Origin: a virus
Lineage: Duplodnaviria > Heunggongvirae > Uroviricota > Caudoviricetes
DNA length: 42,950 nucleotides
IMG/VR virus record: IMGVR_UViG_2870479586_000005
Strand: one strand, 5' to 3'
The position numbers and the translations under genes were made by a program. Below the pieces are notes generated by a model. The model was not told the origin of the DNA. It did no database searches and saw only the letters and a list, made by a program, of their open reading frames with translations. Shown piece by piece: positions 21,256-33,259 of this stretch (position 1 is the first letter of the stretch; each line of letters starts with the position of its first letter).

Positions 21256-21496
21256 CCCGCCGAGCCAGCAGCAACGCCAGCGGTTAGAGGTTCAGACATG
21301 ATTTTTCCTGATTCAGAAACGACAAAACCCGCCGTGGCGAGGTTCTTAGAGATTTGGCAACATACCAAATTAGCGTTAAATATGGCCTATTTTGTTCGGT
21401 TTTGCAAGCATTATACGCAAACGTCGTCTAAATGGTTCTGATAATGATGCAAAGTTGCAAGAAGTGCCACTTCATCAAGTGCTCTCACCGCCTCTT

Positions 21497-22081
21497 TCAT
21501 TCCTGCCCAGTGCGGGAGTATGTTTCGCACCAGGTGGAACGAGAAACAGACAACATTCCAGCTAGCGCAGATCCGGCCATCTCCTTAAAATCCTCGCGTT
21601 TATTTGCTGCTGCGACCGCCTGCACGGACAACCACACCAACGAAAGCAGGCGCTTGACTACTTTTCTCTGAGTTGACGCAGAGATGTTTCCTTTATAGCG
21701 ACTCCAGACAGCCTCACAAATAGCTGTTTGGTGTTTGAACGCCAGGTTACCACCGTAGCAATAGCGCAACCACGCCTGCTGGCTAACGTCGAGCGCGTTC
21801 ACAGCGCGGCGCCACGATGAATCAGCGAATTCAAAATCATTCATCGGCGGCGCGGGGCGACGTCTGCTGAAACTTTCCAGGGCATAAACTGGCGTAACCA
21901 GAGCATCAACGGTCCGGTCCTCCAGTTGCACACGATGAATATGTTTGCGTGGGTATGCGTTTTTATCTGCTGGCGGGTGCTCACACAATGCTTCCAGTTG
22001 CCCCTTAGAACCACCAGACAAATCCCGCAATGCAGCGCGCAGTTTTATGCGGGTATATTCCAATAAATACTCGTTACTCAT
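21497..22081 (-). CDS. putative late-gene regulator (antiterminator Q-like by position)
   Basis: 194-aa ORF immediately upstream of the lysis genes and downstream of nin-like genes; no sequence motif recognised. Confidence 0.4.
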   Translation of the reverse strand: MSNEYLLEYTRIKLRAALRDLSGGSKGQLEALCEHPPADKNAYPRKHIHRVQLEDRTVDALVTPVYALESFSRRRPAPPMNDFEFADSSWRRAVNALDVSQQAWLRYCYGGNLAFKHQTAICEAVWSRYKGNISASTQRKVVKRLLSLVWLSVQAVAAANKREDFKEMAGSALAGMLSVSRSTWCETYSRTGQE

Positions 22082-24981: not shown

Positions 24982-25470
24982 ATGGCTACCAACCCAAGAG
25001 AGCACGCCCGGCGAGTGCTGGACACGTTCTGGTGCGGGCGTGGTTTCCCTGTTGATCCAGCGAAAATTGCTCACGACATGGGATTAGATGTTTTTATTAC
25101 CGATCTTCCTGGGAAAGTTTCTGGCGCACTGATTAAACAAAAAGATCAAGATCCAGCGATCTTTCTAAACAGTGATGACAACAAAGTTCGTCAACGTTTT
25201 TCATGTGGGCATGAGTTGGGGCATTACATCGCCCGGCAAGCATCGCATAGTGATGAATATGAGTACGTTGATTTACGTGGCGAAACCGCAAGCGCCGGAA
25301 CGCATCCTGATGAAATTTTTGCGAACAAGTTCGCAGCAGAACTTCTGATGCCGGTTGATGAGGTCAGAAAACTGCACGCTGACGGCCAACCAAGTTATAT
25401 AATGGCGCATTATTTTGGCGTATCTGACGATGCGATGACTTATCGTTTAAAGAACTTGAGGTTGGGGTAA
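24982..25470 (+). CDS. ImmA/IrrE-family Zn metallopeptidase (HExxH)
   Basis: 162-aa ORF; HELGHY motif within a DUF955/ImmA-like context; GGAGGA Shine-Dalgarno upstream. Confidence 0.75.
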   Translation: MATNPREHARRVLDTFWCGRGFPVDPAKIAHDMGLDVFITDLPGKVSGALIKQKDQDPAIFLNSDDNKVRQRFSCGHELGHYIARQASHSDEYEYVDLRGETASAGTHPDEIFANKFAAELLMPVDEVRKLHADGQPSYIMAHYFGVSDDAMTYRLKNLRLG

Positions 25471-25479
25471 CGCTTTAGA

Positions 25480-26085
25480 ATGCCATCGGATGACGATTTT
25501 AACAGCCGTTTCAAACAGGAAGTTGCACGCCGACTGAAGGATTCCCTCAACCTACACCGTCAGTTAGCAGAAGAGGTTGAGCCGGAGGACGATGAAACTC
25601 CGGTTCAGTCCCCTGATGAAACTTCACCTCTGCAAAAGATTTCGCACGACCCCAAAAAACCATCTGTCCGTATTCACGGAATAGCCAGAAAAAGAGCTGC
25701 CGAAGCTCGCAAAATGGCTGTAGCTGCGTCTAGCAAAAGAACTCCAACTGCTACACCATCTCAACAAGTCACCCGTACTGAGAGTAAAATCTTGACCGAG
25801 TTCACATCTGTGAAACAGGTGAGTTCACTTGATACCGAGCATGAGCGCAAACAACTCAACAACAAAGATTTTGAAGCTGAAATCGCTCTAAAAAAACGCT
25901 ACGGAAAATGGTTCCTGATAATCCTTGCTTGCCAACTTCTGATAATGAATGGGGTATTTATTGCCGACGGCGCAGGTAAGCTGGAATTTGAGGATTTAAC
26001 ACTACAGTTGTACATGGGCGGTACTTTGACAGAGGTATTCGGCCTCGTGCTGGTCGTGACAAAATACCTTTTTAAACGCAAGTAA
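25480..26085 (+). CDS. membrane protein with charged N-terminal region and two C-terminal TM helices
   Basis: 201-aa ORF starting 10 bp after the peptidase stop; C-terminus WFLIILACQLLIMNGVFIA and GGTLTEVFGLVLVVTKYLF are hydrophobic helices. Confidence 0.65.
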   Translation: MPSDDDFNSRFKQEVARRLKDSLNLHRQLAEEVEPEDDETPVQSPDETSPLQKISHDPKKPSVRIHGIARKRAAEARKMAVAASSKRTPTATPSQQVTRTESKILTEFTSVKQVSSLDTEHERKQLNNKDFEAEIALKKRYGKWFLIILACQLLIMNGVFIADGAGKLEFEDLTLQLYMGGTLTEVFGLVLVVTKYLFKRK

Positions 26086-26509
26086 CTCTCTCGGTCCAAC
26101 AGTCTTTCGAAAGCCCTGATCAAAGGGCCTTGATAAATTAGCAGTGCGTTGAAAACAGATAGTTATTCCCATCAGTTCCAACGTAATACACATCAAAAAA
26201 ATCACCATTCTTTTGCTCTACGTCAACACCTACCCTTAAAAAAATAATTCTCCAAGAATGAGAAAGTTATTGTGTGTATTAGATAAGATATGAGCTGACA
26301 CATCTATGGCGTGGAGCCAAACCTAATATGACAGTCCGCTCTGTGCCAAGAGCGAACATTACAAACACACTAAAATTTATGTTTGTACTTCGCTGTAGCC
26401 ACCTAAAAGTATTATTGCGGGTGGTTTCGTGACAATGTTAGATATTCTTCATTTTGAATTGATTACTGAATTAAGATAAAACCACCCGAATTAAAACTAT
26501 CAAAAGTAT

Positions 26510-27391
26510 CTATGGTTGTTCATCACTCTCTTCTGAAAGTATTTGTACTACTTGTCCACACTCTCCACATACTACGTGTAATTGACTATCTTCTTCGGAC
26601 TTGAAAATCTCACTAACTAAGCTATGACAGTTAGGGCATTTTATCTCGTTATCAAAACCTATGAATTTAAGGAATAAGTTTTGAATTAATGAAACTGCAG
26701 TGCAAGTGAGTATAAGGCAAATTTTAGCGTCAGGAATGTTTTTGTTTGAAGAGTGCACCGTCTCTGCGGAAAAATCCCATGCAGACTCAATCGTTGAGCG
26801 GCAATATTTTCTGAGACTTGAGTTTCGTTTTCCTGCGGCATACAACCCAATAATAATTCGGCAAATATTTTTAAAGTCAGCTGCTTTAATATTTTCTTTT
26901 TTTAATATATCCTCATGAGTTTTATAAAGGTGAGCAGCAAGCTCAACCATGCTCTCTCTACAAGTTAGTCCAATACTTTGAATATCTTCAGGGGCCTTAA
27001 TATTATTCAGAGCAACAGCAGAAGCATTTAACCTCCGGCTAATAGAACGAAGCATATCTATATCTAAAGGTAACTCATCAATAACATGTTTGAAATCATT
27101 GCTATGTCTTGCTTGTAGTCTTTGAGTTATACCCAAATGAAAAGAATATGCTTCATCAGCAGAAAAGAAAAACTCATTTTGAGTGTATAAGTTTAAAGGA
27201 ACGTTTTCACCTTCAGCAACCCACCAGTTACCATCATTTTTTGTTCTGACGTTCCAAATGTTAACCTCAAAACCTAAATCATTAAATGTTTGCTCAACTT
27301 GCATGTTTTTTATGTTTTCTATATTTTGAGTTTTTAAATATTCAGTAATTCTTTTCTCAGCATCGATTCTGTATTCTGGTGTCATGTGCAA
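26510..27391 (-). CDS. hypothetical protein with C-terminal zinc ribbon
   Basis: 293-aa ORF in AT-rich DNA; C-terminal CPNC...CGEC four-Cys motif. Confidence 0.55.
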   Translation of the reverse strand: MHMTPEYRIDAEKRITEYLKTQNIENIKNMQVEQTFNDLGFEVNIWNVRTKNDGNWWVAEGENVPLNLYTQNEFFFSADEAYSFHLGITQRLQARHSNDFKHVIDELPLDIDMLRSISRRLNASAVALNNIKAPEDIQSIGLTCRESMVELAAHLYKTHEDILKKENIKAADFKNICRIIIGLYAAGKRNSSLRKYCRSTIESAWDFSAETVHSSNKNIPDAKICLILTCTAVSLIQNLFLKFIGFDNEIKCPNCHSLVSEIFKSEEDSQLHVVCGECGQVVQILSEESDEQP

Positions 27392-27449
27392 TCCCTTTTA
27401 ATAAGATACTAAAAGTAAAAGCGCATTATAGCATAACACATACAATGCG

Positions 27450-27695
27450 TTAATGCGTATGCTTGTGCCCTGTAATGATTTCAAAATGAACGTTTGCATA
27501 CAACTGTTTTTTGATCTGGTTGTATTGCAACAGAATGATTTCCACTGCTCGTTCATAGCTGATCTTCAGTTTAGTTAGCATGTCCGTTCTGTGCCTTTTA
27601 AGTTCATTCTTGCCATACTTAGCCGACTTGAATGCTATTTCTTCTATCACTTTTTTAGTTGGCATATTGGGGCTAGAGTTCCGTTCCTCGCTCAC
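27450..27695 (-). CDS. small hypothetical protein
   Basis: 81-aa ORF (GTG start in track) just upstream of the 293-aa gene; start uncertain. Confidence 0.3.
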   Translation of the reverse strand: MSEERNSSPNMPTKKVIEEIAFKSAKYGKNELKRHRTDMLTKLKISYERAVEIILLQYNQIKKQLYANVHFEIITGHKHTH

Positions 27696-27862
27696 GGCAG
27701 ACCTTAAGCTCAGTTAGTTCGTCTGCTCCGTGCCAGAGCGAACGTTGTAAACACAACATTGCTTTAGTCGACAGGGGCCAATAGGCTACTGCGTACCCTG
27801 TGCTAGAGTAAGTATCAAATAGGTATTATCCATGTATATGACTGCTCGATGATGCATCATAA

Positions 27863-28942
27863 TCACAAACGTTCATGATCAAGACTGTTTTCATCATTAT
27901 TTAAGTCATTAAGCATTTGAAGTGCGTCACGAGTACGTTCATAATTACTTTCAGGGTATAATCTAAACTTCATATTTTCCAAATTAATTAATTTTCTTTT
28001 TAATTTGAAGGAATCGTTAGAAAGTGACATTTCGTAAAAATCAATATCCCCCTGTCTGGATTGTAATGCACTCATAACGGAAAACTTAGCAGATTCTTTG
28101 AACCTCAAACCGAATGTAACATCGCTTAACCGAAATGGTGAGTTCTGTAAACCTTGATTATTAATAACTCGATATTCATTTTCATATTTCCAAGAAGGAG
28201 CTTTGCTGAGAAGAATGACCCTATCAATCTCTTTTTTGGCAGTATTCTTTATATTATCATTGCTGCCAAATAACATATCATGAACTTGTTGAGTTCTAAT
28301 AAATCGATTCCCTTTGTAATCAACTGGATGGATATCTAAAGAGTCATTTTCAGAAGTATCATATCCAATACAAAATCCCTTATGTTGATCAGCATAATGC
28401 GACCACATTAAGGGGCAGTTAAATTTTCTTGCTAATGAAAGAACACCAACCTCATAATTTTTTAGCAAGTATCTTTTAATATAAAAACTGGCGCTAGCAT
28501 AAAAATCATCACCATAATTATCAACATCCCACGAAATATTATCAATTAATTTTCGAGCTTCGCTTTCACCTAGCATTTCAATTTTCTCTAATGTCCTTAG
28601 ACCTTTATATTTAATTTTTTTTGCTGCTTTCGCTAGTTCCTTTTGATGATTTTCTTTTACTAATTTATGAAGGATAGAGTTCAATTCATTGACATTATTG
28701 ATGTCGTTTAACACGGAAGGATTACAATCCAAAGGGTCATTGAATGTTGTTGGATCAGCAAAATACAGTCTATCGCTTACAAGCAAGTCAAGACTATCAA
28801 CACTAAAGCTTTTATATTTATATAATCGAGAGGGAATATTCTGTATCATCACTTTTATCTCATAAATTTTTTTGATATTATCTGCCAATTCTAGCCCCAT
28901 GGGCAATAGCAAAATCGAAAAATACTCTCTACGTAAGGGCAA
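27863..28942 (-). CDS. DUF2971-like protein (candidate defence-associated)
   Basis: 359-aa ORF in AT-rich DNA; RLYKYKSF...LYFADPTTFNDPLDC...PLMWSHYADQHKGFCIGYD...KYENEYRV motifs recalled as DUF2971 hallmarks; start may be at an internal Met. Confidence 0.5.
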   Translation of the reverse strand: MPLRREYFSILLLPMGLELADNIKKIYEIKVMIQNIPSRLYKYKSFSVDSLDLLVSDRLYFADPTTFNDPLDCNPSVLNDINNVNELNSILHKLVKENHQKELAKAAKKIKYKGLRTLEKIEMLGESEARKLIDNISWDVDNYGDDFYASASFYIKRYLLKNYEVGVLSLARKFNCPLMWSHYADQHKGFCIGYDTSENDSLDIHPVDYKGNRFIRTQQVHDMLFGSNDNIKNTAKKEIDRVILLSKAPSWKYENEYRVINNQGLQNSPFRLSDVTFGLRFKESAKFSVMSALQSRQGDIDFYEMSLSNDSFKLKRKLINLENMKFRLYPESNYERTRDALQMLNDLNNDENSLDHERL

Positions 28943-29514
28943 GCCCTTTCCCCATGGATATTCATCAAATTAAGCGGGTGTACTTAGGTCATATTGACCT
29001 GTTCCTAATTGACGATACACCTCGATGTTCATTAAGCCACTTAGAGTGCTGAGACAGATATGAACTGCAGCTTTTCGCTCACTGCTGCCCTTCAGTAAGC
29101 GAAAAAATGCCTACTCGGTGCCATATACAGTCATGGTTATTAACTACAGGGAATAATTCCACACTGAAATTAAATGTCTGCCTTTTACAGTAGAAATAGT
29201 TTCTCCAGGACACTATCCATTGCCGGGCACAATCACTCGGGGTATAACGATATAAAATATGTTCATGATAGTGCAGGTTCGTATATTAAGTTCAGCAGCG
29301 AAAACATGCCTTACAGGTTTCCGGTTTTGGGAGCGTCGTTACAGGATCCTGCGCATACCGTTCCCATCTGTTGAATTAAAGGTTTCACAGCCTTTGCCGA
29401 TATCGCCTTTTACCTTGCCTGTGATGCGTTCAGTGCTCAGCGTTGTTTACTGTAGCTCTCGGAACTGATTACAGACCGCGTCTTAAAAACCAATCCTTAC
29501 TCTAAAGGGAATTC

Positions 29515-30438
29515 ATGAGATTAAAATACTCAGTACTCTTACTCGCCATTGCCCTTACAGGCTGTGATAACAAAAAAGATGAGATCGGTTGTTCTTCGGA
29601 AATGACCCAATCAGCTCTCATGGATTTATTAAAAAAATCTGCTTATGAAGGACTCTCTGAACAGGTCGATAAATACCCTGATGTCACTAATCAGACCAAA
29701 CGAAGCACACTGGACAAGATCAAACTAGCCGTCTCTGAAATCTCCACAACATCAAGTGACACGGGCAGCACAATGAAAACTTGTGAAGGGACCGTGACGA
29801 TGACTCTACCTGCGAACGAGTACGTCCAGCTTTCAGATGCTTACAGAAAGAATTTTAATCGTAATCTCGACAAGCAAATGGAAAGCCTGTTTTTGGAGAA
29901 CAACGCAAACGCCTTTTCCAAACGTATCACCTACACCGTGCAGGCGACCGACGATCAGAAAAACGTTTTTGTAAAAACCTCTTCTGATAATCCGATATCA
30001 GTGGGCGCCGCTTTACTGACATCACTTTCTATTATCAACCCGATCGTTGAGCAGCAGAAAATCCAGCAGGCTAAGGATGCCCAACAGAGCCAAATTGAAG
30101 CGGAACAACAGGTGCAACTCAGGGCGCAGGAACAGGCTAAGTATGAGGCGGAGAAGCAAATAGAGAGACAGGCACAACTTCAGCCACAAAAAGCTGACAG
30201 CCTTGATCAGTCCCGAATGGCATTTGCGAATGCCGACTCTGATTTGAGTACCGTCTGGAGCAAGTTAACCCCGGCGAAGAAAAAAGATTTGCTGCCTTCT
30301 CAGCGTCAGTGGATCAAAACTAAGGATGCTATGTGCGGTAAAGTTTCAATGCAGGGAACAGATGCTGAAGTCAAGAAAATGCTCGACTGCCAGACGCAAA
30401 TGACCCTTTCAAGAATCGCTTTCCTCAGAAACCAATAA
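29515..30438 (+). CDS. lipoprotein with C-terminal LprI/DUF1311-like domain
   Basis: 307-aa ORF; signal peptide plus lipobox (LLLAIALTGC); Gln-rich coiled region; C-terminal QRQWIKTKDAMCG...KMLDCQT...RIAFL resembles lysozyme-inhibitor LprI-type domains. Confidence 0.65.
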   Translation: MRLKYSVLLLAIALTGCDNKKDEIGCSSEMTQSALMDLLKKSAYEGLSEQVDKYPDVTNQTKRSTLDKIKLAVSEISTTSSDTGSTMKTCEGTVTMTLPANEYVQLSDAYRKNFNRNLDKQMESLFLENNANAFSKRITYTVQATDDQKNVFVKTSSDNPISVGAALLTSLSIINPIVEQQKIQQAKDAQQSQIEAEQQVQLRAQEQAKYEAEKQIERQAQLQPQKADSLDQSRMAFANADSDLSTVWSKLTPAKKKDLLPSQRQWIKTKDAMCGKVSMQGTDAEVKKMLDCQTQMTLSRIAFLRNQ

Positions 30439-30458
30439 CTGAAGTTTCCTTCAAGCTG

Positions 30459-30492
30459 GCGCCAGGTGTTAACCTGGTGCCAGCTTAGTCAT
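30459..30492. other. strong stem-loop downstream of the lipoprotein gene
   Basis: AGCTGGCGCCAGG-tgttaa-CCTGGTGCCAGCT, 13-bp arms with one mismatch; not followed by a clear U-tract. Confidence 0.5.
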
Positions 30493-30515
30493 CAAGTGCA
30501 TATTTAACTGTTTTA

Positions 30516-30588
30516 TATGGGCGGTACTTTGACAGAGGTATTCGGTCTCGTGCTGGTCGTGGTCAAATACCTTTTTAAACGCAAATAG
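30516..30588 (+). repeat. orphan direct repeat duplicating the 3' end of the membrane-protein gene (26011-26085)
   Basis: About 73 bp near-identical to 26011-26085, including the stop region, but with no gene body upstream. Confidence 0.8.
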
Positions 30589-30612
30589 AGTATTTCCACC
30601 CCAAACAACCTG

Positions 30613-31401
30613 TCAAAATGCTGAATCAGCAACAGATACAGCCGACTTTTTCCCCATTACCATCAATTTATCCAGTGTCATACTTCGCAGATTGTCGCTG
30701 TGGATCACCAGATACCCTGCCCGCTCAGCGATCTCTTTGAAAGCGTCAAAGGTCATCAGATGTTCGCCTTTGGCAACATGGCGCATCCTTGTCACTTTTC
30801 CATTTTTGATAGTGGTGATAAAAGAAAAATCCGGAATGGTTGGCTGATTTTCATCGAGTAGCAGGCAGTGGATGTATTCAATCGCCTCTAACATTTGCGT
30901 CTGTGACAGTTGTTCTATGTGAGAGACGGCGAAGCGTTGATGAATCATGGTGTAGGCATCGGGATACATCATGCCTTTCTTACCGACCAGCATATTAACG
31001 GCATCACGTAAGGGAGTACGGTCATCGGTAGTTGTACTCCGCCTCTCTGGGCGCTGGCTAAAATAACAATCTTCAAGCTTTTCGAAAACTTCCCAAGCCT
31101 GTTCTGTTTCCAGCATTTTGGCATGGCGAGCTGCGCCGCGTTCTGTCCAGAGAATGAGGGATCGGGTATGTTTAGCAACTGACTGACTATCTGTCAGTCT
31201 GTTTTTGAAGTCGCGTAATTCATTACCTTCCAGCTTAAAAAAATGCTTTCCTACGACAAATCTGGCGATGTTGCGCTTGAAGTTTTGCTGGATACCATTT
31301 ACTTCCGTGCCATACAAACTGGCAAGCAATTCAGTAGTGATGACGGGAAGTTGGTTATGATGTAGCGGAGAAAGGGATTCCGCAGATATTTGGATTGTCA
31401 T
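30613..31401 (-). CDS. phage antirepressor (AntA/ORF6N-type N-terminus)
   Basis: Track ORF 30613-31449; ATG at 31401 has a GAGG Shine-Dalgarno; antirepressor-like character judged from recall. Confidence 0.6.
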   Translation of the reverse strand: MTIQISAESLSPLHHNQLPVITTELLASLYGTEVNGIQQNFKRNIARFVVGKHFFKLEGNELRDFKNRLTDSQSVAKHTRSLILWTERGAARHAKMLETEQAWEVFEKLEDCYFSQRPERRSTTTDDRTPLRDAVNMLVGKKGMMYPDAYTMIHQRFAVSHIEQLSQTQMLEAIEYIHCLLLDENQPTIPDFSFITTIKNGKVTRMRHVAKGEHLMTFDAFKEIAERAGYLVIHSDNLRSMTLDKLMVMGKKSAVSVADSAF

Positions 31402-31431
31402 CGCAGTGGCCTCACTTAGTGTTTTTTTCAT

Positions 31432-31462
31432 CACCACCAGCGACGCCAATCATCTGGTGGTG
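31432..31462. promoter_or_regulatory. perfect 9-bp inverted repeat (candidate operator of the antirepressor gene)
   Basis: CACCACCAG (31432-31440), 13-bp spacer, CTGGTGGTG (31454-31462), immediately upstream of the antirepressor start codons. Confidence 0.45.
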
Positions 31463-31673
31463 AACTGTGCAGGGTTGGCGTAACCGGCTAAGTGAACCCG
31501 GCGCTTCCGCAGAAGCCCCCACACAGCCCACCATAATGCGAATGTGGCCGTGCCTAACACATAAAAAAACCGCTAACGCGGCTATGCGTCACTTAGATAT
31601 CCGGGACGCCAATCCCGGCAACCGATTTTGCGGCTGCGCGGAAACTATAGCCCCGGGCTTTTTCTAAGTCAAT

Positions 31674-31895
31674 TCAATCAACTTCAAACCTCCGGTGTTC
31701 ACATTCCATACACTCAACGGGAACATCATCGCGATGCAAGTCCACATATCCGACCCGCTTATACAACTCAATAATGTCCGGTAACGTGACCAGATGTTTT
31801 TCCGGTTCCAACACCTCAGCCCTGGTTACTTTGTAATCTGAAATATAGAGCACTATCCGCCCGTTCCGTGGTAACTCCAGTTTATCGCCAAACAT
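31674..31895 (-). CDS. hypothetical protein
   Basis: 73-aa ORF in minus-strand early region. Confidence 0.3.
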   Translation of the reverse strand: MFGDKLELPRNGRIVLYISDYKVTRAEVLEPEKHLVTLPDIIELYKRVGYVDLHRDDVPVECMECEHRRFEVD

Positions 31896-32082
31896 GTCCT
31901 TTCCCTCCGGGAAACCAATGATATTGACGATATTACACCCACAACGATTCGTTTTACGTCACTCCGCAATCACCATACATACGTACCAATCCGTACATTC
32001 CCACCACAAAAATGGCATTCGGCGGGCACTGGTAATGGATTTTTAACGCGTGCTATTGCCTTGCGACGTATTTTCAACTCAC

Positions 32083-32307
32083 TCATACAGCCTCCCTGCT
32101 CTCAAATGGGCGAATATTGGTTGGTTCTCCACACGGAATAGCCCAACCCAGCCAGGTAAATATTTTCAGGTCACACATCGCGTCATACCGTTCGCCAGGA
32201 TTCACATCCACCATGCTGCAGGCAATTTCATATTGTTCACCATTATCAGTCAGTGCGATCTGGTCATTAATAAACCGGGGCACAAATGCCAGAAAAAGTT
32301 CTTTCAT
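32083..32307 (-). CDS. hypothetical protein
   Basis: 74-aa ORF, coupled to the upstream gene. Confidence 0.3.
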   Translation of the reverse strand: MKELFLAFVPRFINDQIALTDNGEQYEIACSMVDVNPGERYDAMCDLKIFTWLGWAIPCGEPTNIRPFESREAV

Positions 32308-32614
32308 GAAATCCTCCGCTCAAAATAAACATACTGATTCACCGCACCGATCGACATTTCGAGTTTTTCCGCGATATCCTGGCGATTAATACCCGACTGA
32401 TGTAATTCCCTTGCCAGCTCGATATCCTCCTGGCGGTATTTCACTGACTGGTGATAATTACCCGCAGATACATACAGATTTTCAACTCGCGCGCTTTTGT
32501 GCGTACCGCAGCACCGGTTCTTCCAATAAGCTGCCCTATACGTTCAACTGTCATGCTGCCCGCACATTGTTTGATGATTACGACTTCCGCACGCACCCAC
32601 CGTTTGTATTTCAT
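32304..32614 (-). pseudogene. HTH-containing small protein gene, apparently frameshifted
   Basis: ATG at 32614 opens a 57-codon frame (MKYKRWVRAEVVIIK...MTVERIGQLIGRTGAAVRTKAREL); a second frame continues to 32304 (...DIELARELHQSGINRQDIAEKLEMSIGAVNQYV); both halves look protein-like. Confidence 0.3.
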
Positions 32615-32847
32615 TGCTCCATCCCCCCTCTCCAGTAGTTCAGACGCTCTCTGAAAAATTCCCGGTACGTATCCGGCGTCATTCCGATTTGCTCAATCAC
32701 GCTTCCCCTCGGAATACGTTTCTCAAAGAGTTGGCGGATCAGCGTCGCCGCTCGCATGTCGTAGTGCTCTTTAAGCAGGTATTCCTGAGGCCATTTGGCG
32801 CGGTTGTGTGGTAAGCCGGGCGGCAGGTAATCTGATTGCCCTGCCAT
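32611..32847 (-). CDS. hypothetical protein
   Basis: 78-aa ORF with ATGA overlap to the downstream gene. Confidence 0.35.
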   Translation of the reverse strand: MAGQSDYLPPGLPHNRAKWPQEYLLKEHYDMRAATLIRQLFEKRIPRGSVIEQIGMTPDTYREFFRERLNYWRGGMEQ

Positions 32848-32848
32848 A

Positions 32849-33259
32849 TCACGTCCCTTTCTTTGCTATCGGAGTGATGGAACTCAGCAGCAGGCGACAG
32901 CGACCGGGCGCGCCAATGCGCTGTCCGGTTATCTTGTCGTAAGTTTCATGCGGTGAGGCACACCAGGTTGTCGCTGTTTCGTGGAGTTTCACTTGCCGCT
33001 CACCATTTCTGCGAATCGCGATCCCGATGTGCGTTTTACCCTTACATTTCACTGCTGGCGCTGCGGCTACGGATGCCTGACGGGCAGGCTGAGCTGGTGT
33101 TGAAAAATTGCCTGCTTTGGGTCTTGGTACAAAAACCGCACGAGTGCGCGCACGTGGCCCGGCGTTCATATTCCACAAAATGACGTCGAGATAGTTTTTA
33201 CCGTCGTCTATGTGTCCTTTGTCCGACGGGTACTCTAATTTGCCTGAAATGGTGGTCAT
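32849..33259 (-). CDS. hypothetical protein
   Basis: 136-aa ORF directly downstream of the helicase gene. Confidence 0.35.
   Translation of the reverse strand: MTTISGKLEYPSDKGHIDDGKNYLDVILWNMNAGPRARTRAVFVPRPKAGNFSTPAQPARQASVAAAPAVKCKGKTHIGIAIRRNGERQVKLHETATTWCASPHETYDKITGQRIGAPGRCRLLLSSITPIAKKGT

What the first reader, a model, noticed from the sequence alone, without database searches (positions are those of the whole stretch)
29515..30492. Lipoprotein with LprI-like C-terminal domain followed by a 13-bp-arm hairpin
A plus-strand lipoprotein with a Gln-rich region and an LprI/DUF1311-like C-terminus sits inside the cassette; such envelope proteins are typical lysogenic-conversion or superinfection-exclusion cargo. 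The hairpin at 30459-30492 lacks a U-tract, so it may be a recombination or RNA-stability element rather than a simple terminator.
Basis: partly seen in the sequence, partly recalled or inferred. Interest (0 to 1): 0.4.

Follow-up and report, generated by a model that had tools for sequence, protein, structure and literature searches.

The report
Flagellar-regulon lipoprotein module in a prophage
A gene annotated as a lysozyme inhibitor in an E. coli prophage is a self-contained 1.2-kb unit (promoter, lipoprotein gene, closing RNA hairpin) that carries a near-consensus flagellar sigma-28 promoter, so it is probably switched on with the cell's motility genes and probably acts on cell-wall enzymes rather than on host lysozyme.

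Summary
The ORF is real: 29515-30438 (+), 307 aa. It has a lipobox (LTG|C17), a Gln-rich helix and a C-terminal Pfam LprI/DUF1311 domain (31.1 bits, cut-off 22). It lies at 30453-30486, with 15-nt arms that include one G·U pair, and has no U-tract.

New here: a near-consensus sigma-28 (FliA) promoter, TAAAGGTT-N11-GCCGATAT, at 29377-29403. It keeps 14-16 of 16 consensus positions, 131-142 nt before the ATG, in all 14 orthologous loci scanned with at least 70% DNA identity (E. coli, E. whittamii and six other genera). These include both chromosomal and prophage copies.

Cross-genus DNA homology runs only from about 29284 to 30487 and ends at the hairpin. The unit is therefore a mobile promoter-gene-hairpin module (a moron). 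It occurs in 439 of 5426 complete E. coli genomes, including ST131.

The N-terminal 140-aa domain has no Pfam family or solved relative, yet it defines at least 218 protein clusters. Asp at +2 predicts inner-membrane anchoring.

Function is inferred: a periplasmic modulator or inhibitor of a peptidoglycan glycosidase made together with late flagellar genes. "Lysozyme inhibitor" is unproven, because there is no MliC, Ivy or PliG domain. The hairpin behaves as an mRNA 3' element, not a recombination site.

The parts
29284..30487 (+). Whole mobile module: promoter region, 5' UTR, ORF and 3' hairpin. This is the only stretch shared with other genera.
   Evidence: blastn of window 27001-33000 against 17 loci. 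Homology starts at 29284-29286 in C. freundii, Citrobacter sp., Y. rohdei and Pseudescherichia. It ends at 30484-30487 in C. freundii, Citrobacter sp., Y. rohdei, E. cloacae and Pseudescherichia, at 82-90% DNA identity.
29377..29384 (+). Predicted sigma-28 (FliA) -35 element, TAAAGGTT
   Evidence: Consensus is TAAAGTTT-n11-GCCGATAA (PMC2859248). The only match in the 43-kb window, with 0 of 100 shuffles matching. Invariant block in the 11-locus alignment A6.
29396..29403 (+). Predicted sigma-28 -10 element, GCCGATAT. The 11-nt spacer is 29385-29395. The transcript start is inferred near 29410-29412.
   Evidence: 14-16 of 16 matches, 131-142 nt before the ATG, in all 14 loci scanned with at least 70% DNA identity. 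The best score in 2000 random 400-nt windows was 12, apart from windows overlapping this site.
29505..29509 (+). Shine-Dalgarno AAGGG, 5 nt before the ATG
   Evidence: Read directly. TAAAGGGAA is invariant in all 11 aligned loci.
29515..30438 (+). ORF of 307 aa. PGAP names it 'lysozyme inhibitor LprI family protein'.
   Evidence: It also matches phrog_5094 (unknown function) at E = 4e-186.
29515..29565 (+). Lipoprotein signal peptide with lipobox LTGC (Cys17 at 29563-29565). Asp18 at +2 follows.
   Evidence: Sequence. Cys17 is invariant. Asp+2 is conserved in the Escherichia, Citrobacter, Enterobacter, Yersinia and Pantoea members. That Asp+2 acts as a Lol-avoidance signal is established knowledge, not tested here.
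29581..29991 (+). N-terminal alpha+beta domain (aa 23-159) with conserved Cys26/Cys90 and the YT.Q.TDD.K motif. No Pfam family covers it.
29992..30189 (+). Gln-rich helical stalk (aa 160-225), variable in length between homologues
   Evidence: AF2 helix 160-221. Indels are confined to this stretch.
30190..30426 (+). LprI/DUF1311 domain (aa 226-304): three helices, invariant QRQW motif and Cys274/Cys292
   Evidence: Pfam PF07007, 31.1 bits against cut-off 22. Invariant columns. AF2 helices 230-249, 253-274 and 283-305.
30453..30486 (+). 3' hairpin: 15-nt arms, GUUA loop, one G·U pair, no U-tract. It is the last conserved element of the module.
30507..30587 (+). Second copy of an 81-nt direct repeat (first copy 26004-26084, which is the 3' end of the phrog_5346 gene). 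It marks the prophage-side junction just after the module.
   Evidence: 90% identity. The same pair is seen in L001, L022, L023 and L009.

Best explanation
The locus is a self-contained accessory gene module at 29284-30487. It consists of a sigma-28 (FliA, flagellar class 3) promoter, a leader of about 105 nt, a lipoprotein gene, and a G+C-rich hairpin that closes the transcript. A lambdoid/P2-mosaic E. coli prophage carries it as a moron.

Shown:
- the ORF, lipobox and LprI/DUF1311 domain;
- a promoter match that is conserved in position and sequence across chromosomal and prophage copies in E. coli, E. whittamii and six other genera;
- module boundaries that coincide with the hairpin;
- hairpin conservation with strand-specific wobble pairs.

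Inferred:
1. RNA polymerase with sigma-28 transcribes the gene together with the late flagellar genes (flagellin, stator, chemotaxis). A lysogen would therefore make the protein only when motile.
2. The protein is lipidated at Cys17 and, because of Asp+2, stays in the inner membrane facing the periplasm.
3. The membrane-proximal alpha+beta domain and the distal LprI three-helix bundle are each locked by a disulfide. A stalk of about 60 residues, roughly 9 nm, would hold the LprI domain near the peptidoglycan layer.
4. The protein binds and modulates or inhibits an enzyme that cleaves glycan strands, such as a lytic transglycosylase or muramidase. This would tune wall remodelling or protect the wall while flagella and stators are being installed.
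5. The hairpin acts in the + strand RNA as a 3'-end-forming and exonuclease-blocking element, that is, a terminator without a U-tract or a stabiliser after Rho-dependent termination.
For: Gene and domain.

Promoter:
- TAAAGGTT-N11-GCCGATAT matches 14 of 16 positions of the published consensus (PMC2859248). That is a better match than the experimentally FliA-dependent aer promoter listed in that paper (12 of 16).
- It is the only match in the window, with 0 of 100 shuffles.
- The two boxes are the invariant blocks of the upstream alignment while the 11-nt spacer varies. Pantoea deserta has a perfect 16 of 16.
- A relative in Kluyvera with 45% protein identity has its own 13 of 16 site, 65 nt before its ATG. 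It is the only hit of at least 13 on that strand in 11 kb.
- No sigma-70-like site was found on the + strand upstream.

Module and moron:
- Homology to chromosomal Citrobacter, Yersinia, Enterobacter and Pseudescherichia copies is limited to 29284-30487.
- The gene sits in non-phage loci in C. freundii and Pantoea and in unrelated lambdoid prophages of Enterobacter at the equivalent position.
- In E. coli prophages the left neighbours differ from strain to strain while the gene stays.

Hairpin:
- It is conserved in 10 loci. Changes are one-sided and give U·G, C·G or U·A, and G·C or G·U. These pair only in the + strand RNA.
- Distant orthologues have a canonical terminator (Morganella, stem plus U7) or an A/T-flanked hairpin (Proteus) at the same place.

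Function:
- LprI-domain proteins are periplasmic partners of peptidoglycan glycosidases. ScwA controls MltD levels, and its overproduction lyses cells (PMC7933661).
- DUF1311 proteins neutralise or are predicted to neutralise lysozyme-like or pesticin-like T6SS effectors (PMC12981562, PMC9796082, bioRxiv 10.64898/2026.08.01.741415).
- Loss of MltD impairs motility in H. pylori without loss of flagella (as summarised in PMC5077204).
Against: - No expression data. The promoter is a sequence prediction.
- Orthologues in Morganella and Proteus (44-50% identity) and the P0120 paralogue lack the site, so the flagellar link is confined to one clade.
- No partner enzyme is identified, and no neighbouring gene suggests one. 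The only hint is Morganella, where the gene follows yfhM-pbpC.
- A truncated allele that stops after aa 259 and lacks most of the LprI domain represents 166 E. coli sequences. The domain is therefore dispensable in some lineages.
- An EC958 transposon screen for enhanced motility did not list this gene (PMC5425062).
- The hairpin shows no fully compensatory (both-sides) changes, and without a U-tract it is not a textbook terminator.
Confidence: 0.5

Rival explanations
1. It is what the annotation says: a periplasmic inhibitor of host (c-type or g-type) lysozyme. The prophage would then give the lysogen lysozyme resistance, as classical lysogenic conversion.
For: Pfam and PGAP name the family after M. 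tuberculosis LprI. The protein is a membrane-anchored lipoprotein, as the ScwA authors describe for bona fide inhibitors (PMC7933661). Another Enterobacter prophage that carries the gene also carries an Ivy lysozyme-inhibitor gene (L024).
Against: No MliC, PliC, Ivy or PliG domain at E <= 1. By the ScwA paper's account, the MliC domain of LprI is sufficient for lysozyme resistance and no experiment supports that role for the LprI domain. ScwA gave no protection. A sigma-28 promoter is an odd control for an anti-lysozyme defence. Asp+2 would place the protein on the inner membrane, behind the peptidoglycan.
Confidence: 0.12
2. It is an orphan immunity protein. It would neutralise lysozyme-like or pesticin-like muramidase toxins delivered into the periplasm by competitors' type VI secretion systems or bacteriocins, and it spreads on prophages as a defensive gene.
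For: DUF1311/LprI proteins with signal peptides serve, or are predicted to serve, as immunity to peptidoglycan-targeting T6SS effectors, including orphan copies (PMC9796082, PMC12135965, PMC12981562, bioRxiv 10.64898/2026.08.01.741415). The gene is solitary, mobile and patchily distributed. In E. coli it lies beside a hypervariable defence slot.
Against: No effector, VgrG, Hcp or PAAR gene lies next to it in any of the contexts inspected. The known immunity proteins are small single-domain proteins, whereas this one has an extra conserved N-domain and a stalk. Conserved sigma-28 control is not expected for immunity, which should be constitutive.
Confidence: 0.18
3. It is a superinfection-exclusion or anti-phage envelope protein. 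For example, it could block the virion-associated muramidase or the DNA entry of incoming phages, possibly flagellotropic ones, given that it would be made together with flagella.
For: Prophage location next to candidate defence genes (DUF2971 = PADLOC PDC-S31; DUF262 or GIY-YIG in other strains). It is an envelope lipoprotein. Two E. coli CRISPR spacers show that the gene arrives on invading DNA.
Against: No PADLOC model matches it. The same gene with the same promoter is an ordinary chromosomal gene in Citrobacter and Pantoea. No homologue was found in 50,697 sequenced phage genomes.
Confidence: 0.08
4. The hairpin works at the DNA level, as a recombination or cassette-boundary site that mobilises the gene, rather than in RNA.
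For: Cross-genus homology ends within 3 nt of the hairpin's 3' end in five contexts. Each arm is itself nearly palindromic (CTGGCGCCAG and CTGGTGCCAG). In most other genera the 5' arm contains the Chi octamer GCTGGTGG.
Against: There is only one copy and no partner site at the 5' boundary. No integrase or transposase is associated with the chromosomal copies. The window's own copy lacks Chi. Wobble pairs fall on the + strand only, which argues for selection on RNA. Distant orthologues have an ordinary terminator at the same position.
Confidence: 0.1

Closest known systems
LprI (Rv1541c) of Mycobacterium tuberculosis, the founder of Pfam PF07007
   Same: Lipoprotein with an LprI/DUF1311 domain, exported to the cell envelope.
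   Different: LprI carries a second domain, MliC (PF09864). The ScwA paper reports that MliC is sufficient for lysozyme resistance (PMC7933661). The window protein has no MliC domain. Its LprI domain is C-terminal, behind an unrelated alpha+beta domain and a Gln-rich stalk.
ScwA (SL1344_0490) of Salmonella Typhimurium
   Same: Enterobacterial, horizontally acquired and about 275-307 aa. The LprI domain is C-terminal. Four conserved cysteines lie at similar positions (ScwA 30/100/237/259; here 26/90/274/292). Periplasmic. It is the only characterised enterobacterial protein with this kind of layout. ScwA controls the level of the lytic transglycosylase MltD and gives no lysozyme protection.
   Different: ScwA is soluble, not a lipoprotein. 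It is induced in stationary phase, and no flagellar promoter has been reported for it. I could not obtain the ScwA sequence, so homology of the N-terminal halves was not tested. Nothing with its length and cysteine pattern appeared among the 150 best hits of the N-domain profile or in a second profile search.
DUF1311-type T6SS immunity proteins (Etsi4 of EHEC; LprI-domain orphan immunities and Psi15 of Pantoea agglomerans)
   Same: Periplasmic DUF1311 domain. Associated with toxins that hydrolyse peptidoglycan. Orphan copies spread horizontally.
   Different: Those genes sit beside effector genes or inside T6SS islands. This one never does in the loci examined. It also has an extra conserved N-domain, a stalk, a lipid anchor and a sigma-28 promoter.
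flxA of E. coli K-12 (FliA-dependent gene in the Qin cryptic prophage; Ide and Kutsukake 1997, cited in PMC6551532; the Qin location is from my own knowledge)
   Same: A prophage-borne gene of unknown function wired to the host flagellar sigma factor.
   Different: Unrelated protein. flxA is not an exported lipoprotein and is not known as a mobile module shared with chromosomal loci of other genera.
Phage morons such as lambda bor and lom (concept of Hendrix and colleagues; my own knowledge)
   Same: An autonomous transcription unit with its own promoter and 3' stem-loop. It is inserted between phage genes, is expressed from the prophage independently of the phage programme, and encodes an envelope protein.
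   Different: The promoter here is for an alternative host sigma factor, and the 3' stem-loop has no U-tract. G+C content (43-49%) does not stand out from the phage background.

Membership tests
Pfam PF07007 LprI / DUF1311 | HMM score above the curated gathering threshold | tested here: met
   31.1 bits against 22; aa 226-304 cover profile positions 11-106 of 106.
Pfam PF07007 LprI / DUF1311 | Helical bundle with a conserved Q-R-x-W motif and a cysteine pair | tested here: met
   Q263, R264, Q265, W266, C274, C292 and R300 are invariant in 24 homologues. AF2 gives three helices, 230-305, at pLDDT 78-94. The disulfide itself was not tested.
Proven lysozyme inhibitors (MliC/PliC PF09864, Ivy PF08816, PliG) | Presence of one of the inhibitor domains | tested here: not met
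   No such Pfam or NCBIfam hit at E <= 1. No structural match to them.
Proven lysozyme inhibitors (MliC/PliC PF09864, Ivy PF08816, PliG) | Inhibition of lysozyme activity | not testable with these tools
   Needs an enzyme assay. ScwA, the only enterobacterial LprI-domain protein tested, was negative (PMC7933661).
Bacterial lipoprotein (signal peptidase II substrate) | Lipobox [LVI][ASTVI][GAS]C after a charged n-region and a hydrophobic h-region | tested here: met
   MRLKYSVLLLAIALTG|C. Cys is invariant in 24 homologues. Lipidation itself is not testable here.
Inner-membrane (Lol-avoidance) lipoproteins | Asp at position +2 of the mature protein | tested here: met
   The mature N-terminus is C-D-N. 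It is C-D-N or C-D-D in Citrobacter, Yersinia, Enterobacter and most Pantoea members, but C-N-D in two and C-G-E in the P. vulgaris and Morganella type. Localisation was not tested.
Sigma-28 (FliA) class 3 flagellar regulon | Promoter matching TAAAGTTT-N11-GCCGATAA at a suitable distance upstream | tested here: met
   14 of 16 matches with an 11-nt spacer at 29377-29403. 0 of 100 shuffles match. Conserved at 14-16 of 16 in 14 loci from E. coli, E. whittamii and six other genera.
Sigma-28 (FliA) class 3 flagellar regulon | Transcription dependent on FliA and repressed by FlgM | not testable with these tools
   No expression data were found. Literature searches for FliA together with LprI, DUF1311 or yecT gave nothing relevant.
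Phage moron | Autonomous unit (own promoter and 3' stem-loop) inserted between phage genes and absent from related phages or present elsewhere | tested here: met
   Promoter and hairpin lie inside the 1.2-kb unit. The unit is shared with non-phage chromosomal loci. It lies on the strand opposite to the flanking phage genes.
T6SS immunity protein | Gene adjacent to a cognate effector or inside a T6SS island | tested here: not met
   No effector, VgrG, Hcp or PAAR gene in any neighbourhood examined.
Intrinsic (Rho-independent) terminator | G+C-rich stem-loop directly followed by a U-tract | tested here: not met
   The stem is present (-38.5 kcal/mol for the 95-nt fold), but the tail is AGUCAUCAAG. 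The consensus scan did not call it.
ScwA family | Sequence homology along the whole protein to SL1344_0490 | not tested
Only the architecture and the cysteine spacing could be compared, from the paper.

The most novel reading that the evidence does not exclude
A horizontally mobile promoter-gene-hairpin module adds a new periplasmic component to the late flagellar (sigma-28) regulon of enterobacteria. This would be an inner-membrane lipoprotein with two parts: a previously undescribed alpha+beta domain (motifs RT.K.DPNSTK.FC and Y.VQPTDDGK in its wider family) and a stalk-mounted DUF1311 domain. Together they would control a peptidoglycan glycosidase around the flagellar motor. Prophages, including the one in pandemic ST131, would then use the module to rewire wall remodelling or motility of their host only when it is flagellated.
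Probability: 0.25. Interest if true: 0.65.

Novelty: new member of a known kind. Interest (0 to 1): 0.42.

Why it matters
1. Annotation. The label "lysozyme inhibitor", which PGAP applies to this gene in the annotated E. coli records inspected (439 genomes carry the gene), rests on a domain with no demonstrated inhibitory role. That warns against reading it as a virulence or conversion factor.

2. A testable handle on DUF1311. The conserved sigma-28 promoter is a concrete and cheaply testable prediction. It would place a DUF1311 protein in the flagellar regulon and suggests where to look for its partner: lytic transglycosylases, FlgJ, or the peptidoglycan-binding stator.

3. Prophage biology. 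The case shows a prophage cargo gene controlled by a host developmental sigma factor rather than by phage or housekeeping promoters.

4. A new domain. The N-terminal domain defines a sizeable family (at least 218 clusters at 50% identity) that is not in Pfam.

None of this is a new kind of system. It is an uncharacterised member of known kinds, namely an LprI-domain periplasmic protein and a phage moron.

Tried and rejected
- PDB sequence searches with the family profile and with the LprI part gave nothing significant.
- tblastn against 50,697 phage genomes gave no match, although the protein belongs to phrog_5094.
- PADLOC gave no hit for this protein. Rfam gave nothing for the leader or the hairpin.
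- Sigma-E promoter idea (GGAACTG...TCTTA at about 29472). Rejected by eye: the spacer is about 3 nt too short, and the GGAACT box is not conserved in Citrobacter.
- Integron attC idea for the hairpin (GTTAAC in the loop). Rejected: it does not fit GTTRRRY, and there is no integron context.
- Hairpin as terminator of the convergent ORF6N anti-repressor gene. On the - strand the stem carries an A·C mismatch and is not followed by a U-tract.
- Attempt to link the protein to ScwA by sequence. The ScwA sequence was not in the paper's supplement, and two profile searches did not surface it, so the question stays open.
- EC958 motility papers. They gave no expression or fitness data for this gene.
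- The second 'place' per genome in the first BLAST is explained by the 81-nt repeat, not by a paralogue.
Full report
**1. What is in the sequence**

The + strand ORF 29515..30438 (307 aa, ATG start) is present as described. Its N-terminus, MRLKYSVLLLAIALTG|C, is a lipoprotein signal peptide with lipobox LTGC. AlphaFold2, run with a 24-sequence alignment, gives four parts (mean pLDDT 83.9):
- a disordered tether (aa 18-25);
- an alpha+beta domain (aa ~29-155);
- one long helix (aa 160-221), of which about a third of residues 178-225 are Gln;
- a three-helix bundle (aa 230-305).

Pfam assigns the bundle to LprI/DUF1311 (PF07007). The hit is E = 3.2e-7 at 31.1 bits, above the gathering score of 22, and covers nearly the whole profile. 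NCBIfam has nothing specific.

The hairpin exists but lies at 30453-30486. It has 15-nt arms and a GUUA loop, with 14 Watson-Crick pairs plus one G·U on the + strand, which is an A·C mismatch on the - strand. No U-tract follows on either strand.

**2. Genomic setting**

The window is an E. coli prophage. It has lambdoid early, replication, nin and Q regions and a P2-like baseplate, and it is integrated beside the tRNA Leu-Cys-Gly cluster near pgsA-uvrC.

The gene lies between the replication genes and the Q region, on the strand opposite to all flanking phage operons. PGAP names it 'lysozyme inhibitor LprI family protein'.

In total, 576 of 5426 complete E. coli genomes match the module, and 439 of them match over at least 80% of its length. 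ST131 strain EC958 is among them.

Immediately to its left is a low-G+C slot (26.1-29.1 kb, 32-38% G+C) whose content changes from strain to strain:
- a DUF2971 protein (PADLOC candidate PDC-S31) plus a 293-aa ORF in this window;
- a GIY-YIG nuclease plus IS1 in another strain;
- a DUF262 gene pair in another;
- a different hypothetical gene in EC958.

The lipoprotein gene itself is constant. No isolated phage genome in INPHARED encodes it, although it belongs to PHROG 5094, which has no known function.

**3. The family and its mobility**

Full-length homologues are confined to Enterobacterales. Protein identities to the window are:
- Citrobacter, 88%;
- Yersinia rohdei, Enterobacter, Leclercia and Pseudescherichia, 81-85%;
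- Pantoea and Erwinia, 67-75%;
- Proteus and Morganella, 43-50%.

The contexts differ:
- In C. freundii the gene is a solitary chromosomal gene between a fec-type iron transport operon and an MFS/amn region.
- In Pantoea it is also chromosomal.
- In Enterobacter it sits in unrelated lambdoid prophages at the equivalent nin-region position and again on the opposite strand.
- In Morganella it follows yfhM (alpha-2-macroglobulin) and pbpC.
- A 35%-identity paralogue lies on an integrase-bearing island.

DNA comparison shows that what is shared between these contexts is a discrete unit. Homology to the window starts at 29284-29286 in four genera. It ends at 30484-30487, the 3' end of the hairpin, in five contexts, at 82-90% identity. 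The unit is therefore promoter region, gene and hairpin: a moron-like module that has moved between chromosomes and prophages.

**4. The promoter (main new result)**

I aligned the 250 nt upstream of the ATG from 11 loci. Two blocks remain invariant even in Pantoea, where the coding DNA is only about 70% identical: TTAAAG.TT and TGCCGATA, separated by a variable spacer.

In the window they read TAAAGGTT-N11-GCCGATAT (29377-29403). The published consensus for sigma-28 (FliA) promoters is TAAAGTTT-n11-GCCGATAA (PMC2859248). The window matches 14 of 16 positions. The experimentally FliA-dependent aer promoter in that paper matches 12 of 16.

- It is the only match in the 43-kb window, and 0 of 100 shuffles produce one.
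- The site scores 14-16 of 16, at 131-142 nt before the ATG, in every locus scanned with at least 70% DNA identity (14 loci from E. coli, E. whittamii and six other genera), chromosomal and prophage alike. P. deserta is a perfect 16 of 16.
- Apart from windows overlapping the site itself, 2000 random 400-nt windows never exceed 12.
- A Kluyvera relative with 45% protein identity has its own 13 of 16 site (TCAAGTCT-N11-GCCGATAC) 65 nt before its ATG. This is the only hit of at least 13 on that strand in 11 kb. That locus also contains an srfB-like gene.
- Morganella, Proteus and the island-borne paralogue lack such a site.
- No sigma-70-like promoter was found on the + strand.

I conclude, with roughly 75% confidence, that the gene is a class 3 flagellar-regulon member. 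In a lysogen it would then be expressed with flagellin, stator and chemotaxis genes rather than constitutively. I found no report of this. The nearest precedent is flxA, a FliA-dependent gene in the Qin prophage of K-12.

**5. The protein**

*Sorting.* The mature N-terminus is Cys-Asp-Asn. Asp at +2 is the classical Lol-avoidance signal (established knowledge), and it is conserved in the Escherichia, Citrobacter, Enterobacter, Yersinia and most Pantoea members. The protein is therefore predicted to stay on the periplasmic face of the inner membrane.

*N-terminal domain.* The domain-only model is confident (pLDDT 92.8, pTM 0.86). It has an invariant Cys26/Cys90 pair and an invariant YT.Q.TDD.K motif. 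Searches gave:
- no Pfam family;
- 218 clusters at 50% identity in an exhaustive profile search of 1.84 billion representatives.

In 62 sampled members, 33 carry a C-terminal LprI domain. A few instead carry SH3, TPR, TonB_C or other modules. Across that wider family the conserved motifs are RT.K.DPNSTK.FC and Y.VQPTDDGK.

*Stalk.* The stalk of about 60 residues would span roughly 9 nm and varies in length between homologues. That is consistent with a spacer that places the LprI bundle near the peptidoglycan. This is inference.

**6. What the LprI domain is likely to do**

The family name comes from M. tuberculosis LprI. That protein also has an MliC domain, and the ScwA paper states that MliC is sufficient for lysozyme resistance. 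It also states that there is no experimental evidence for such a role of the LprI domain (PMC7933661).

Evidence from characterised or predicted LprI-domain proteins:
- ScwA is a Salmonella periplasmic protein with a C-terminal LprI domain and four cysteines spaced much as here. It gave no lysozyme protection. Instead it controls the level of the lytic transglycosylase MltD and of several other hydrolases, and its overproduction lyses cells.
- DUF1311 proteins also serve, or are predicted to serve, as immunity to lysozyme-like or pesticin-like T6SS effectors.

The common denominator is binding of enzymes that cut the glycan strand. With the sigma-28 promoter, the most economical hypothesis is a periplasmic modulator or inhibitor of such an enzyme during late flagellar assembly. 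Loss of MltD impairs motility in H. pylori without loss of flagella (summarised in PMC5077204). This functional step is inferred; I give it about 30%.

Points against:
- no partner is identified;
- a truncated allele lacking most of the LprI domain represents 166 E. coli sequences;
- the gene was not among the hits of an EC958 motility transposon screen.

**7. The hairpin**

A homologous stem-loop follows the stop codon in ten loci from E. coli, E. whittamii, six other genera and one unclassified isolate. There are no double compensatory changes. The one-sided changes give U·G, C·G or U·A at one position and G·C or G·U at another. All are tolerated in the + strand RNA, but on the - strand they would be A·C mismatches.

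In Morganella the same position holds a canonical terminator (stem plus U7), and in Proteus an A/T-flanked hairpin. The hairpin is the last conserved element of the module. It matches no Rfam family.

I read it as the transcript's 3'-end element: a terminator without a U-tract, or an exonuclease barrier after Rho-dependent termination. A DNA-level recombination role is not supported, but it is not excluded. The module boundary coincides with the hairpin, and in most other genera the 5' arm contains the Chi octamer GCTGGTGG. The window's copy reads GCTGGCGC instead.

**8. Verdict**

The gene is prophage cargo encoding an envelope lipoprotein with an LprI domain. However, 'lysozyme inhibitor' and 'superinfection exclusion' are unsupported, and the hairpin is a conserved mRNA 3' element of a mobile module.

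The added value is the conserved sigma-28 promoter, the predicted inner-membrane location, and a sizeable N-terminal domain family that is not yet described. This is a new, uncharacterised member of known kinds, of moderate interest.

Noticed in passing
window 29515-29546 and 29989-30020; L020 1509-1540; L021 1501-1532: Two different native type I-E CRISPR spacers of E. coli match this gene exactly. One sits in the iap-cas2 array and equals the first 32 nt of the ORF. The other sits in the ygcE-queE array. Both protospacers are followed by 'cat', which gives an ATG PAM on the - strand, the same strand for both. About 137 of the 576 matching genomes match over less than 80% of the query. Every such row in the listed sample was a CRISPR spacer, and 119 records fall in the identity band of the first spacer. 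At most 6 genomes have two matching places, so I cannot tell whether spacer and gene exclude each other.
   Followed up: partly
window 26004-26084 and 30507-30587: An 81-nt direct repeat (90% identity) brackets 4.4 kb that holds the variable slot and the lipoprotein module. The first copy is the 3' end of the phrog_5346 gene (25480-26085). The second copy leaves a 23-codon ORF (30517-30588, MGGTLTEVFGLVLVVVKYLFKRK) just after the hairpin. This looks like the scar of an insertion or recombination into that gene's end. The pair is conserved in the related prophages L001, L022, L023 and L009.
   Followed up: partly
window 26086-29110: A hypervariable, low-G+C (32-38%) slot lies left of the module. 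Here it holds a 293-aa ORF (26510-27391, -) with no family hit and a DUF2971 protein (27863-28942, -) that matches the PADLOC candidate defence family PDC-S31 (E = 1e-50). Other strains carry a GIY-YIG nuclease plus IS1, a DUF262 gene pair, or another gene at this place. The right edge of the variable region coincides with an 18-nt-arm imperfect hairpin at 29067-29110.
   Followed up: partly
window 24982-26085: A + strand gene pair: an ImmA/IrrE metallopeptidase (best PADLOC hit CapP, E = 2e-25) followed by a phrog_5346 protein with a hydrophobic C-terminal tail. Possibly a regulatory or defence pair. Not examined further.
   Followed up: no
L002 8958-8965, and the equivalent position in L010, L011, L012, L013, L017 and L024: In most other genera the 5' arm of the hairpin contains the Chi octamer GCTGGTGG on the + strand. 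The E. coli prophage copy reads GCTGGCGC instead. The window has no Chi on the + strand and two on the - strand (31434, 41237).
   Followed up: partly
protein P0071 (E. coli); corresponds to window 29515-30291: A common allele (a cluster of 166 sequences) stops after residue 259, which removes two of the three LprI helices and both of its cysteines. This suggests relaxed selection on the domain in some E. coli lineages.
   Followed up: partly
window 21410-22081 (-): The Q antiterminator reading frame hits a stop after 194 codons, whereas EC958 has 223. The near-identical prophage in L001 is annotated as a Q pseudogene with an internal stop. This prophage may be unable to switch on its late genes.
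   Followed up: partly
L006-L008 5332-9002 (Morganella morganii): The 46-49%-identity orthologue lies directly downstream of yfhM (bacterial alpha-2-macroglobulin) and pbpC (PBP1C), a pair linked to periplasmic defence and wall repair. It ends with a canonical intrinsic terminator.
   Followed up: no
L024 4178-4591 (Enterobacter prophage): A lambdoid prophage that carries the lipoprotein gene also carries an Ivy (PF08816) lysozyme-inhibitor gene near its terminase genes.
   Followed up: no
EC958 prophage (L022) and PMC5425062 Table 1: In a transposon screen of EC958, insertions in two phage genes enhanced motility: EC958_2136 (tail fibre) and EC958_2149 (packaging protein). Their locus tags fall between yecG and fliT, where this prophage sits. 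I did not verify that they belong to the same prophage, and the lipoprotein gene itself was not listed.
   Followed up: no
L033 5001-10960 (Kluyvera): The 45%-identity relative with its own sigma-28-like site lies a few genes upstream of an srfB-like gene. From my own recollection, the srfABC operon is under flagellar control in Salmonella.
   Followed up: no
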